A DNA stretch of 64,000 nucleotides, from assembly GCA_964016885.1 (NCBI GenBank), contig OZ024751.1:42904001-42968000 (forward strand), in the 5' to 3' direction. Position numbers and translations under genes: made by a program. How positions within the stretch are numbered: the stretch's first letter is position 1; each line of letters opens with the position of its first letter. Shown piece after piece: positions 38,354 to 42,277 of this stretch. This stretch comes from Eledone cirrhosa. Taxonomy: Eukaryota. Below the pieces are notes generated by a model. It made no database searches. It worked only from the letters and a program-made list of their open reading frames with translations, and was not told where the DNA came from.

Positions 38354-38401
<48 letters not shown>

Positions 38402-38773
38402 AAATGGGGAGAAGAATACTGCAGGTAGCACATGGATAACATGTTATAAAATGAGTCCCTCATCAGTGATTTGCCAACGATCATAGATATTTTATTGCAT
38501 TAAAAATCATATACCTCACGTTGGTGCAATAATAACTAAATTAAGTTATTAGGACAATTAAAACGCGTAAAGCGAGTGAGACAAGTAAACAACAAAGAGA
38601 AAAGCTAACCGTAGATAGGAAGAGGCACAAGCTACATATAGTTATTCTGTCAGCGTAAGCTGGGTGAATATATGAGCGCGTAGAAAATAGACCTTTCGAG
38701 ATGAATTCAATGTAAGAAAGAAGGAAATTGTTTTCGTCGCGAACGGGTATATATATATATATATATATATATA

Positions 38774-41700
38774 TGAATATAGACATAGAATATTCGAAAA
38801 TATTCTGTATGTTTATAATAAACATTTTGAAGACCTAATCGCTATAGAATAGAATACGTCACGTATTACAATTAGATTCTCGATAAAAGCAAGGGAAGTA
38901 ATCTACGCGTTTCATTCTTGTTAGAAATCATCAGGACTACATATCCAGTGCTTTTATCGAGAATGACACAGCTAGAGACTTATAGAATACTTAGCTGTGT
39001 ACAGGAACTGGTTTGAAAGAGCGGTTGCCGGTCCGGCAGAAATTAGAAATTGGAATAAATGCTCTGAAATAGCGATATATATGTGAATATAGACATAGAA
39101 TATTCGAAAATATTCTGTATGTTTATAATAAACATTTTGAAGACCTAATCGCTATAGAATAGAATACGTCACGTATTACAATTAGATTCTCGATAAAAGC
39201 AAGGGAAGTAATCTACGCGTTTCATTCTTGTTAGAAATCATCAGGACTACATATCCAGTGCTTTTATCGAGAATGACACAGCTAGAGACTTATAGAATAC
39301 TTAGCTGTGTACAGGAACTGGTTTGAAAGAGCGGTTGCCGGTCCGGCAAAATGTTTATTATAAACATACAGAATATTTTCGAATATTCTATGTCTATATT
39401 CACATATATATCGCTATTTCAGAGCATTTATTCCAATTTCTAATTTCTGCCGGACCGGCAACCGCTCTTTCAAACCAGTTCCTGTACACAGCTAAGTATT
39501 CTATAAGTCTCTAGCTGTGTCATTCTCGATAAAAGCACTGGATATGTAGTCCTGATGATTTCTAACAAGAATGAAACGCGTAGATTACTTCCCTTGCTTT
39601 TATCGAGAATCTAATTGTAATACGTGACGTATTCTATTCTATAGCGATTAGGTCTTCAAAATGTTTATTATAAACATACAGAATATTTTCGAATATTCTA
39701 TGTCTATATTCACATATATATCGCTATTTCAGAGCATTTATTCCAATTTCTAATTTCTGCCGGACCGGCAACCGCTCTTTCAAACCAGTTCCTGTACACA
39801 GCTAAGTATTCTATAAGTCTCTAGCTGTGTCATTCTCGATAAAAGCACTGGATATGTAGTCCTGATGATTTCTAACAAGAATGAAACGCGTAGATTACTT
39901 CCCTTGCTTTTATCGAGAATCTAATTGTAATACGTGACGTATTCTATTCTATAGCGATTAGGTCTTCAAAATGTTTATTATAAACATACAGAATATTTTC
40001 GAATATTCTATGTCTATATTCACATATATATCGCTATTTCAGAGCATTTATTCCAATTTCTAATTTCTGCCGGACCGGCAACCGCTCTTTCAAACCAGTT
40101 CCTGTACACAGCTAAGTATTCTATAAGTCTCTAGCTGTGTCATTCTCGATAAAAGCACTGGATATGTAGTCCTGATGATTTCTAACAAGAATGAAACGCG
40201 TAGATTACTTCCCTTGCTTTTATCGAGAATCTAATTGTAATACGTGACGTATTCTATTCTATAGCGATTAGGTCTTCAAAATGTTTATTATAAACATACA
40301 GAATATTTTCGAATATTCTATGTCTATATTCACATATATATCGCTATTTCAGAGCATTTATTCCAATTTCTAATTTCTGCCGGACCGGCAACCGCTCTTT
40401 CAAACCAGTTCCTGTACACAGCTAAGTATTCTATAAGTCTCTAGCTGTGTCATTCTCGATAAAAGCACTGGATATGTAGTCCTGATGATTTCTAACAAGA
40501 ATGAAACGCGTAGATTACTTCCCTTGCTTTTATCGAGAATCTAATTGTAATACGTGACGTATTCTATTCTATAGCGATTAGGTCTTCAAAATGTTTATTA
40601 TAAACATACAGAATATTTTCGAATATTCTATGTCTATATTCACATATATATCGCTATTTCAGAGCATTTATTCCAATTTCTAATTTCTGCCGGACCGGCA
40701 ACCGCTCTTTCAAACCAGTTCCTGTACACAGCTAAGTATTCTATAAGTCTCTAGCTGTGTCATTCTCGATAAAAGCACTGGATATGTAGTCCTGATGATT
40801 TCTAACAAGAATGAAACGCGTAGATTACTTCCCTTGCTTTTATCGAGAATCTAATTGTAATACGTGACGTATTCTATTCTATAGCGATTAGGTCTTCAAA
40901 ATGTTTATTATAAACATACAGAATATTTTCGAATATTCTATGTCTATATTCACATATATATCGCTATTTCAGAGCATTTATTCCAATTTCTAATTTCTGC
41001 CGGACCGGCAACCGCTCTTTCAAACCAGTTCCTGTACACAGCTAAGTATTCTATAAGTCTCTAGCTGTGTCATTCTCGATAAAAGCACTGGATATGTAGT
41101 CCTGATGATTTCTAACAAGAATGAAACGCGTAGATTACTTCCCTTGCTTTTATCGAGAATCTAATTGTAATACGTGACGTATTCTATTCTATAGCGATTA
41201 GGTCTTCAAAATGTTTATTATAAACATACAGAATATTTTCGAATATTCTATGTCTATATTCACATATATATCGCTATTTCAGAGCATTTATTCCAATTTC
41301 TAATTTCTGCCGGACCGGCAACCGCTCTTTCAAACCAGTTCCTGTACACAGCTAAGTATTCTATAAGTCTCTAGCTGTGTCATTCTCGATAAAAGCACTG
41401 GATATGTAGTCCTGATGATTTCTAACAAGAATGAAACGCGTAGATTACTTCCCTTGCTTTTATCGAGAATCTAATTGTAATACGTGACGTATTCTATTCT
41501 ATAGCGATTAGGTCTTCAAAATGTTTATTATAAACATACAGAATATTTTCGAATATTCTATGTCTATATTCACATATATATCGCTATTTCAGAGCATTTA
41601 TTCCAATTTCTAATTTCTGCCGGACCGGCAACCGCTCTTTCAAACCAGTTCCTGTACACAGCTAAGTATTCTATAAGTCTCTAGCTGTGTCATTCTCGAT

Positions 41701-41911
41701 AAAAGCACTGGATATGTAGTCCTGATGATTTCTAACAAGAATGAAACGCGTAGATTACTTCCCTTGCTTTTATCGAGAATCTAATTGTAATACGTGACGT
41801 ATTCTATTCTATAGCGATTAGGTCTTCAAAATGTTTATTATAAACATACAGAATATTTTCGAATATTCTATGTCTATATTCACATATATATCGCTATTTC
41901 AGAGCATTTAT

Positions 41912-41917
<6 letters not shown>
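38774..41917 (+). mobile_element. hammerhead retrozyme-like tandem array, 310-bp monomer: ~1.9 inverted units (38774-39348) plus ~8.3 direct units (39347-41917), in (TA)n
   Basis: Exact 310-bp period, no unit differences seen by eye, one HHR per unit, inverted 5' segment, 35-nt 3' tail. Confidence 0.92.
39546..39588 (+). ncRNA. type I hammerhead ribozyme (repeats every 310 bp to 41716-41758; minus-strand copies at 38898-38940 and 39208-39250)
   Basis: gtagtc CTGATGA t-ttct-aaca-agaa-t GAAA cgcg TA gattac; stem I extended by 16-bp attctcgataaaagca/tgcttttatcgagaat after an internal loop; palindromic ACGCGT stem III; GUA cut after 39582. Confidence 0.9.
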
Positions 41918-41958
<41 letters not shown>

Positions 41959-41959
<1 letters not shown>

Positions 41960-42115
41960 CGAAGGAAATATGGTAAGGAACCAGATGGACCATAACGCAC
42001 CAAAGTACTCAATACTTAGGGTAGTAGAGTGGGTAATAGGAACGAGTAGGACCCCGACGGCTGAGCTCAAGCCGTTTCGACGGCTTGAGCTCAGCCGTCG
42101 GGGTCCTACTCGTTC
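41959..42115 (-). mobile_element. family A fold-back element
   Basis: Tail plus palindrome; stem II collapsed through the shared acggct. Confidence 0.8.
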
Positions 42116-42277
42116 ATATATATATATATATATATATATGAAGTATATATATGTATGTATATATTATCATTATTATTGTTAAGTCCAAGTTGGGGTCTGT
42201 TACTATGGAGTTTTTCTAGCGTATTCACAGGGTCACCAGACAAGGCTCTAGATAGATAGATAGATCGATAGAGAGAG

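What the first reader, a model, noticed from the sequence alone, without database searches (positions are those of the whole stretch)
38774..41917. 310-nt hammerhead retrozyme array: candidate viroid-like circRNA retro-element in a cephalopod-type genome
Seen: exact 310-bp period with no visible differences, and a complete type I HHR in each unit (8 on +, 2 on -). The HHR has CUGAUGA/GAAA cores, a GUA triplet, a stem I extended by a 16-bp helix beyond an internal loop, and a palindromic ACGCGT stem III. The rest of the monomer is also paired (aatacgt/acgtatt, atgttta/taaacat, agaatatt-TTCG-aatattct, atagcgat/atcgctat, tgccgg/ccggca, acacagcta/tagctgtgt), suggesting a branched fold with no ORF. 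Known: metazoan non-LTR retrozymes are tandem repeats of a few hundred bp with type I HHRs that yield circRNAs and are thought to use Penelope-like RTs; palindromic stem III allows dimeric cleavage. Inferred: a recent single insertion made by rolling-circle reverse transcription of a 310-nt circle.
Basis: partly seen in the sequence, partly recalled or inferred. Interest (0 to 1): 0.92.

Follow-up and report, generated by a model that had tools for sequence, protein, structure and literature searches.

The report
Young retrozyme with Penelope-type insertions
A 310-base self-cutting-RNA repeat has recently spread to over a thousand sites in this mollusc genome, and its insertions carry the marks expected if a Penelope-type jumping gene copied it from a small RNA circle, which makes an untested idea about these elements directly testable.

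Summary
The array is real: an inverted arm of 1.85 units and a forward arm of 8.29 units, exact 310-bp period, ten type I hammerheads. It is one copy of a very young dispersed family (at least 1,034 insertion ends and 14,861 internal units). All 42 two-armed loci seen whole have outward-facing arms ending about 130 and 165 nt past the cleavage site, mostly in (TA)n. Penelope-like elements of this genome, one of them young with intact frames, show the same layout. Variants are fixed across both arms of a locus (55 of 56), inner ends ignore the cleavage site, and arrays show no growth with age. Best reading: a metazoan non-LTR retrozyme copied by rolling reverse transcription of one monomer, probably a circle, by Penelope machinery. 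The class is known and the Penelope link was already proposed; I found no report of this insertion-level evidence. Cleavage, circles, expression and the partner are unshown, and nothing supports 'viroid-like' replication. The scan had not noted this element, but noted a ribozyme-free element with similar ends in another genome.

The parts
38748..38773 (.). (TA)n target, left flank
38774..39348 (-). inverted arm, 575 nt, 1.85 units; outer ('short') end 130 nt past the cleavage site, next to the unit's internal ATATATAT
   Evidence: same end in the family
38898..38940 (-). hammerhead in the inverted arm (predicted cut between 38904 and 38903)
   Evidence: core position, site check
39208..39250 (-). 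second hammerhead in the inverted arm (predicted cut between 39214 and 39213)
39347..39348 (.). inner junction of the two arms, 2-nt exact overlap
39347..41917 (+). forward arm, 2,571 nt, 8.29 identical units, eight hammerheads (predicted cuts after 39582 + 310n)
39522..39610 (+). first forward hammerhead with the 16-bp helix that extends stem I (39522-39537 with 39595-39610); stem I 39546-39551 with 39583-39588; core from 39552
39583..39892 (+). one 310-nt monomer from cut to cut, the predicted circle; 34% G+C, non-coding, branched fold
41883..41917 (+). 35-nt 'tail' present only at the 'long' outer end (165 nt past the cleavage site)
   Evidence: 1,034 such ends followed by ATATAT genome-wide
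41918..41958 (.). (TA)n target, right flank

Best explanation
A very young, non-coding, non-autonomous retroelement of the metazoan non-LTR retrozyme kind, mobilised by a Penelope-like (Neptune-type) reverse transcriptase/GIY-YIG protein. Shown in the genome: dispersed two-armed arrays with two fixed outer ends in (TA)n, one haplotype per locus, the same layout in co-resident Penelope-like elements. Inferred: read-through transcripts of an array fold neighbouring hammerheads into a double hammerhead and release 310-nt monomers; these are ligated into circles that cannot cut themselves efficiently alone; the endonuclease cuts a (TA)n tract and both target ends prime reverse transcription at two fixed points of the same monomer (130-139 and 165 nt past the cleavage site); the enzyme runs round the template for a variable number of turns; the two cDNAs are joined at short microhomologies. 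My odds by step: mobile dispersed family 0.98, Penelope machinery 0.9, covalent circle as template 0.7, the young family called D here as the partner 0.45.
For: Copy number, each with a reversed-pattern control of 0: 4,470 exact 40-nt hammerhead cores, 14,861 internal unit segments, 1,034 long ends followed by ATATAT. Layout: 44 of 51 loci are two-armed; all 42 with both ends in view have one short and one long end. In the 11 loci not chosen for an end (L001-L010 and the window) 9 are two-armed and 9 of 9 follow the rule. 36 of 42 have at least 6 nt of TA just beyond both ends. Inverted 5'-truncated copy, 30-40-bp tail at one end and (TA)n bias are described Penelope features (PMC8557442, passages). 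Same layout in RT + C-terminal GIY-YIG elements here: short/long ends 76/141 (family A) and 124/164 (family D) nt past a hammerhead-like motif; family D is young (146 of 150 best hits without a stop, 50 with the same score; copies 98-99.7% alike). One monomer per insertion: 25 haplotypes in 51 loci; 55 of 56 arm-fixed substitutions are also fixed in the opposite arm. Read-through of the junction: 2 of 88 inner ends lie within 5 nt of the cleavage site (3.1 expected), phases not distinguishable from uniform, both arms over one unit in 32 of 42; 544 of 550 junction crossings match their locus majority. Not local growth: 18 of 43 arrays have no internal difference (up to 14 full units), 35 singleton vs 9 shared substitutions in 390 units, length vs divergence rho -0.19, p 0.22. 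Selection on RNA structure: an older paralogous family (about 65-70% identical) keeps the helices through 9 double and 4 single changes, with 2 broken, among 38 pairs; 0 of 22 fixed variants hit the catalytic core. Double hammerhead is the minimum-energy fold of a dimer, as described for metazoan type I hammerheads (PMC4209133, passages).
Against: No RNA, cleavage or circle was observed. Stem II is weak (pair probability about 0.15 in the monomer circle, U.U at its base), and only 1 of 9 Xenopus retrozyme dimers cleaved in vitro in 10.64898/2026.07.22.740005. No significant sequence likeness between the unit and the ends of families D, A or C (358, 378 and 42 of 500 shuffles score as well), so the partner rests on geometry and youth only; 150 of 10,595 GIY-YIG candidates were scored, so a closer partner may be unseen. 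Exceptions: L059 changes haplotype within one arm; 5 of 51 loci are one-armed with an atypical second end, one of them at an assembly gap; 9 variants are shared by a subset of units. The excess of pair-keeping among fixed variants is not significant (4 of 22 break a pair vs 22 of 50 singletons, Fisher p 0.06). 40 of the 51 loci were chosen for having the long end, and all but the window are from one chromosome. Fixed variants alone do not separate a circle from a helix-closed linear monomer.
Confidence: 0.7

Rival explanations
1. Penelope machinery, but a linear template: either uncleaved multi-unit read-through RNA, or a cleaved monomer whose ends are held together by stem I and the 16-bp helix so that the enzyme jumps across the nick each turn.
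For: The hammerhead is weak as a monomer, so multimers could persist. The two ends of a cleaved monomer are juxtaposed in the predicted fold. Two different one-base insertions are fixed within 5 nt of the junction in 6 of 63 loci. L059 shows a switch between two haplotypes.
Against: Multimer templates would pass on single-unit mutations as single-unit mutations, yet 25 nested haplotypes are each fixed across whole arrays. Jumping across a nick usually leaves per-turn errors (my own knowledge of R2 and group II intron RTs); 544 of 550 junctions are clean and inner ends do not pile up at the nick.
Confidence: 0.18
2. Short Penelope-type insertions that later grew into satellites by unequal crossover or slippage, the route discussed in 10.64898/2026.07.22.740005.
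For: A founder monomer would also fix its variants in both arms. Nine variants are shared by subsets of units, so some local exchange occurs.
Against: Long arrays with no internal difference, no rise of length with divergence, shared variants in adjacent units in only 1 of 6 loci that have them; both arms multi-unit in 32 of 42; the older paralogous family has shorter arms, at most 1.5 units in the 20 loci fetched (picked by similarity to one copy).
Confidence: 0.07
3. A viroid-like RNA replicon that multiplies RNA-to-RNA and is only now and then written into the genome.
For: Size, branched fold and hammerhead resemble such RNAs; RNA-to-RNA replication is raised as a possibility for retrozymes in PMC7761336 (section 7). 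Nested haplotypes could arise in an RNA pool.
Against: No hammerhead core on the antisense strand of the unit; loci differ by only 0-6 fixed changes; thousands of genomic templates suffice.
Confidence: 0.03
4. Assembly artefact: collapsed or expanded repeats homogenised by consensus calling.
For: Identical tandem units are hard to assemble; unit number at this locus was not checked against reads.
Confidence: 0.02

Closest known systems
Metazoan non-LTR retrozymes (Cervera & de la Pena 2020, PMC7229834: Acropora, Mytilus, axolotl)
   Same: Non-coding 150-450-bp tandem units, one type I hammerhead each, G+C under 50%, self-paired fold, thousands of copies, co-resident Penelope elements; palindromic weak stem III as in axolotl HHR_Amex1 and U.U at the base of stem II as in HHR_Amex2 (parts 2-4 read).
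   Different: There described as head-to-tail repeats with target duplications; here every complete insertion is two outward-facing arms with fixed ends in (TA)n. Circles are shown there and not here.
Penelope-like elements, Neptune clade, and non-autonomous Chlamys such as MRC1 (Craig et al. 2021, PMC8557442)
   Same: Inverted 5'-truncated copy, 30-40-bp tail at one end, partial tandems, microsatellite targets, target duplications hidden in the repeat (passages).
   Different: No coding body and no detected likeness to a co-resident autonomous 3' end, unlike the Chlamys non-autonomous families; up to 19 units per arm.
Vertebrate retrozymes as Penelope derivatives (Li, Clavereau & Pollet 2026, 10.64898/2026.07.22.740005)
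   Same: Concludes that retrozymes are non-autonomous partners of Penelope elements.
   Different: Argues from co-occurrence and pLTR phylogeny, discusses local tandem amplification, has no mollusc and does not discuss inverted arms or tails (parts 1-3 of 5 read; term counts; supplements closed).
Dimer-dependent type I hammerheads of metazoan repeats (Cervera & de la Pena 2014, PMC4209133)
   Same: 6-bp helix I, 4-bp helix II, 1-2-bp helix III with palindromic loop, double-hammerhead cleavage; opposite-strand pairs 100-700 bp apart already noted for minimal Penelope hammerheads.
   Different: U.U instead of the usual G10.1-C11.1; multi-unit arms on both strands.

Membership tests
Metazoan non-LTR retrozyme | Tandem non-coding unit of 150-450 bp, G+C under 50% | tested here: met
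   310 bp, 34% G+C, longest frame 59 aa
Metazoan non-LTR retrozyme | Type I hammerhead in every unit | tested here: met
   Core, stems and triplet present in all ten; stems I and II covary with the paralogous family; Rfam score below gathering
Metazoan non-LTR retrozyme | Many dispersed copies of variable unit number | tested here: met
Metazoan non-LTR retrozyme | Highly self-paired monomer | tested here: met
   60% paired, 0 of 100 shuffles as stable
Metazoan non-LTR retrozyme | Target-site duplication longer than 4 bp | tested here: inconclusive
   Hidden in (TA)n in most loci; about 14 bp by eye in L004; candidates of 18-34 bp in imperfect TA tracts, not separable from chance
Metazoan non-LTR retrozyme | Self-cleavage and accumulation as linear and circular monomer RNA | not testable with these tools
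   Needs in vitro transcription, northern blot, RNase R
Penelope-type insertion | Inverted 5'-truncated copy adjoining the main copy | tested here: met
   44 of 51 loci; 9 of 11 among loci not chosen for an end
Penelope-type insertion | 30-40-bp tail at one end only | tested here: met
   35 nt (26-35 depending on how the AT microhomology is assigned) in 42 of 42 complete loci
Penelope-type insertion | Microsatellite (TA)n targeting | tested here: met
   36 of 42 with TA on both sides; only 14 long ends genome-wide continue AT then a non-A base against 1,034 continuing ATATAT
Non-autonomous derivative of a particular Penelope family | Sequence likeness to the pLTR or 3' end of an autonomous family | tested here: not met
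   Families A, C, D: 378, 42 and 358 of 500 shuffles score as well; other families not examined
Autonomous Penelope-like element | RT and GIY-YIG open frame | tested here: not met
   No frame over 59 aa
Viroid / viroid-like replicon | Ribozymes in both polarities | tested here: not met
   No core on the antisense strand of forward units
Viroid / viroid-like replicon | RNA-to-RNA replication without a DNA stage | not testable with these tools
   Thousands of genomic DNA copies exist; RNA replication not examined

The most novel reading that the evidence does not exclude
This is a currently active retrozyme-Penelope pair in which a covalent 310-nt circle is reverse-transcribed from both ends of one endonuclease cut for many turns, and the autonomous partner (a 4.7-kb unit that also forms tandems and two-armed insertions with ends 124 and 164 nt past its own hammerhead-like motif) moves by the same circular route. 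That would explain pseudo-LTRs, inverted heads and tails of Penelope elements by one mechanism and give a natural RT that rolls on RNA circles.
Probability: 0.35. Interest if true: 0.87.

Novelty: new variant of a known kind. Interest (0 to 1): 0.62.

Why it matters
How animal retrozymes get back into the genome is open: Penelope elements are called a 'strong candidate' and multi-unit cDNA from a circle is a model (PMC7229834, PMC7761336), while a 2026 preprint discusses local amplification. The Penelope insertion mechanism itself lacks an in vitro system (PMC8557442). A family this young keeps the insertion products almost unaltered at over a thousand sites, with exact priming points, and sits beside an intact candidate enzyme, so both questions can be tested with a 310-nt template. 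A reverse transcriptase that rolls on RNA circles and inserts at a defined repeat would also be of practical interest.

Tried and rejected
DNA search of the own genome with the unit returned nothing (common words are skipped), so patterns were used. No RNA holder listed among public runs; this says nothing on expression. Read depth and joints across the locus were not obtained, so unit number here is unchecked against reads. Rfam at gathering level found only a Plastid-psbJ-2 hit on a neighbouring hairpin plus TA tract, which I reject as chance. The consensus fold is unusable because 2 of 10 rows were out of phase; the helix comparison was redone pairwise with hand-set anchors, and I dropped its 3-pair 'h220' row as out of register (38 of 41 pairs counted; one pair of families, so few independent events). 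The similarity next to a Penelope 3' end in L012 is a separate insertion of the older paralogous family, not a shared pLTR. A simple snap-back copy of one cDNA is rejected because either arm can be the longer (long-end arm longer in 26, shorter in 16 of 42, counted by hand). The 12 loci, fetched for clear target duplications, gave none. An apparent 1.5-unit ceiling in the older family is not claimed: one search lists a locus with two full matches 315 bp apart. Literature searches that found no report of this element or of two-armed retrozyme insertions; the supplement of PMC7229834 could not be read, the preprint's supplements are closed, and PMC4918200 was seen only as a listing, so a cephalopod example may stand there or in repeat databases that I could not search.

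Full report
Observation. The stretch 38774-41917 is two arms of one 310-bp unit between (TA)n tracts: 575 nt on the minus strand and 2,571 nt on the plus strand, overlapping by 2 nt, with no mismatch at period 310 in either arm. Numbering the unit from the predicted cleavage site (window 39583 = 1), the left end is at 130 and the right end at 165. Each unit has a type I hammerhead of the usual metazoan build: 6-bp stem I, 4-bp stem II above a U.U, palindromic ACGCGU stem III, GUA triplet (build described in PMC4209133, passages). Rfam sees it only weakly (E 0.026, below gathering). The monomer is non-coding and folds better than all 100 shuffles. The host is a mollusc; octopus is my recollection from its repeats, untested.

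Family. Exact patterns count 4,470 hammerhead cores, 14,861 internal unit segments and 1,034 long ends followed by ATATAT, with reversed controls at 0; these are lower bounds and amount to at least about 4.6 Mb. A short-end pattern gave 1,216 matches but includes internal variant units. I examined 51 loci: the window, ten stretches around the first listed cores, and the first 40 unfetched long ends, all on one chromosome. 44 are two-armed with arms facing outwards; all 42 with both ends in view have one end at 130-139 and the other at 165-170. The unbiased subset gives 9 of 11 two-armed and 9 of 9 obeying the rule. The short end sits at an internal ATATATAT of the unit; 36 of 42 have TA beyond both ends. 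Target duplications are mostly hidden; L004 shows about 14 bp.

Penelope signature. An adjoining inverted truncated copy, a 30-40-bp tail at one end and microsatellite targets are the described marks of Penelope-like elements (PMC8557442, passages). This genome has many such elements (10,595 GIY-YIG candidates, 150 scored). [quoted passage not shown] They show the same layout: ends 76/141 nt past a hammerhead-like motif in family A, 124/164 in family D, about 121/168 or more in family C. Family D is young: 146 of the 150 best hits have no stop, 50 share one score, about 29 have a 784-aa open frame (counted by eye), copies are 98-99.7% alike. Its geometry is the nearest to 130/165, but the unit shows no significant sequence likeness to D, A or C, so the partner is only a candidate.

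One monomer, many turns. Relative to the window unit, variants are fixed across whole loci: 25 haplotypes in 51 loci, 84 fixed calls against 16 partial and 87 single; 55 of 56 substitutions fixed in one arm are fixed in the other, L059 being the exception. A linear monomer primed at 130 or 165 could give at most 165 nt, yet both arms exceed one unit in 32 of 42 loci, inner ends are spread evenly and avoid no site (2 of 88 near the cut, 3.1 expected), and 544 of 550 junction crossings in 63 loci match their locus majority. Inner junctions mostly show overlaps of a few bases or short fillers. Either arm can be the longer, which rules out plain snap-back. Local growth fits badly: 18 of 43 arrays with three or more full units have no internal difference, divergence is 0.029%, length does not rise with divergence, and an older paralogous family with the same ends has arms of at most 1.5 units in 20 fetched loci. 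Some exchange does occur (9 shared variants). A helix-closed linear monomer with faithful jumping cannot be excluded from DNA alone.

RNA function. The minimum-energy fold of a two-hammerhead transcript is the double hammerhead with a 6-bp ACGCGU duplex, while in the monomer circle stem II forms with probability about 0.15: a built-in switch that cuts multimers and spares circles, as proposed in PMC4209133. Between this family and its 65-70% identical paralogue, stems I, II, the long helix and two others keep pairing through 9 double and 4 single changes with 2 broken among 38 pairs (hand-set anchors, one row dropped). No fixed variant touches the core; the trend towards pair-keeping is not significant (p 0.06). 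Activity is not shown, and most Xenopus dimers tested in the 2026 preprint did not cleave.

Comparison. By every genome-level feature that I could test it is a metazoan non-LTR retrozyme (PMC7229834, parts 2-4 of 6 read). That paper and PMC7761336 (passages and section 7) propose Penelope mobilisation and multi-unit cDNA from circles without insertion-level evidence; 10.64898/2026.07.22.740005 (parts 1-3 of 5) supports a Penelope origin by phylogeny in vertebrates and discusses local amplification. PMC5680766 was seen as passages. Opposite-strand pairs of minimal Penelope hammerheads were noted in PMC4209133 (section read). Searches found no cephalopod retrozyme and no two-armed retrozyme insertion; unread supplements and repeat databases may hold one. 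The scan's own notes have nothing for this genome or sequence; one unchecked note describes a ribozyme-free 334-bp element with Penelope-type ends in another genome, and another a sea-squirt retrozyme.

Verdict. Real, young and ordinary in kind, but unusually informative in form. I file it as a new variant of a known kind: a retrozyme whose insertions carry the Penelope signature and record rolling copies of a single monomer.

Noticed in passing
window 8537-9976: Three identical 428-bp copies, separated by (TA)n, of another short two-armed element with a minimal hammerhead (palindromic AT-rich stem III) in each arm; relatives in 12 of 149 fetched loci.
   Followed up: partly
window 41959-42116 (also 5621, 20016, 31007, 51037): Short repeat with a hairpin-like inverted junction between TA tracts, right beside the array; several copies in the window and in 19 of 149 loci; likely another Penelope-type end fragment. 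It causes the spurious Rfam Plastid-psbJ-2 hit.
   Followed up: partly
window 38398-38747: A 350-bp repeat between TA tracts left of the array; the same repeat flanks retrozyme insertions in L064 and L005, suggesting nested insertion in shared (TA)n hot spots.
   Followed up: partly
L116-L135 (e.g. L127:1070-1790), L012:2433-2864: Older paralogous retrozyme family, about 314-bp unit, 65-70% identical, same two end positions, short arms, GUU triplet, non-palindromic stem III, same U.U at stem II; 2,706 candidates.
   Followed up: yes
L136-L147: A third hammerhead family with 9,206 exact copies of a 32-nt core, not tandem, ends about 21 and 86 nt past the cut; about half of the 11 distinct loci shown are 5'-truncated just upstream of the core, unlike the even spread in the 310-nt family (by eye).
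   Followed up: partly
L098:1863-8951; G000:C2:359516607-359532821: Family D Penelope-like element: 4,734-bp tandem period, overlapping 455-aa and 784-aa frames in several copies (intron or frameshift unresolved), and a five-copy array at about 3.9-kb spacing.
   Followed up: partly
L086:5170-5900, L098:5100-5330: Families A and D carry hammerhead-like motifs with the U3-A8 core variant described for Schistosoma Cercyon (PMC4209133); family D also departs from GAAA, so it may not cut.
   Followed up: no
L059:506-4524: The only locus where an arm switches haplotype part-way (outer four units one base, inner two and the whole other arm another): possible template switch between two RNA molecules or gene conversion.
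   Followed up: no
L007:1899-2170: 272 bp of unrelated sequence captured at the inner junction of the two arms.
   Followed up: no
window 55174-58542: G+C-rich, strongly skewed region with a 1,122-codon stop-free frame; not examined, possibly a satellite.
   Followed up: no
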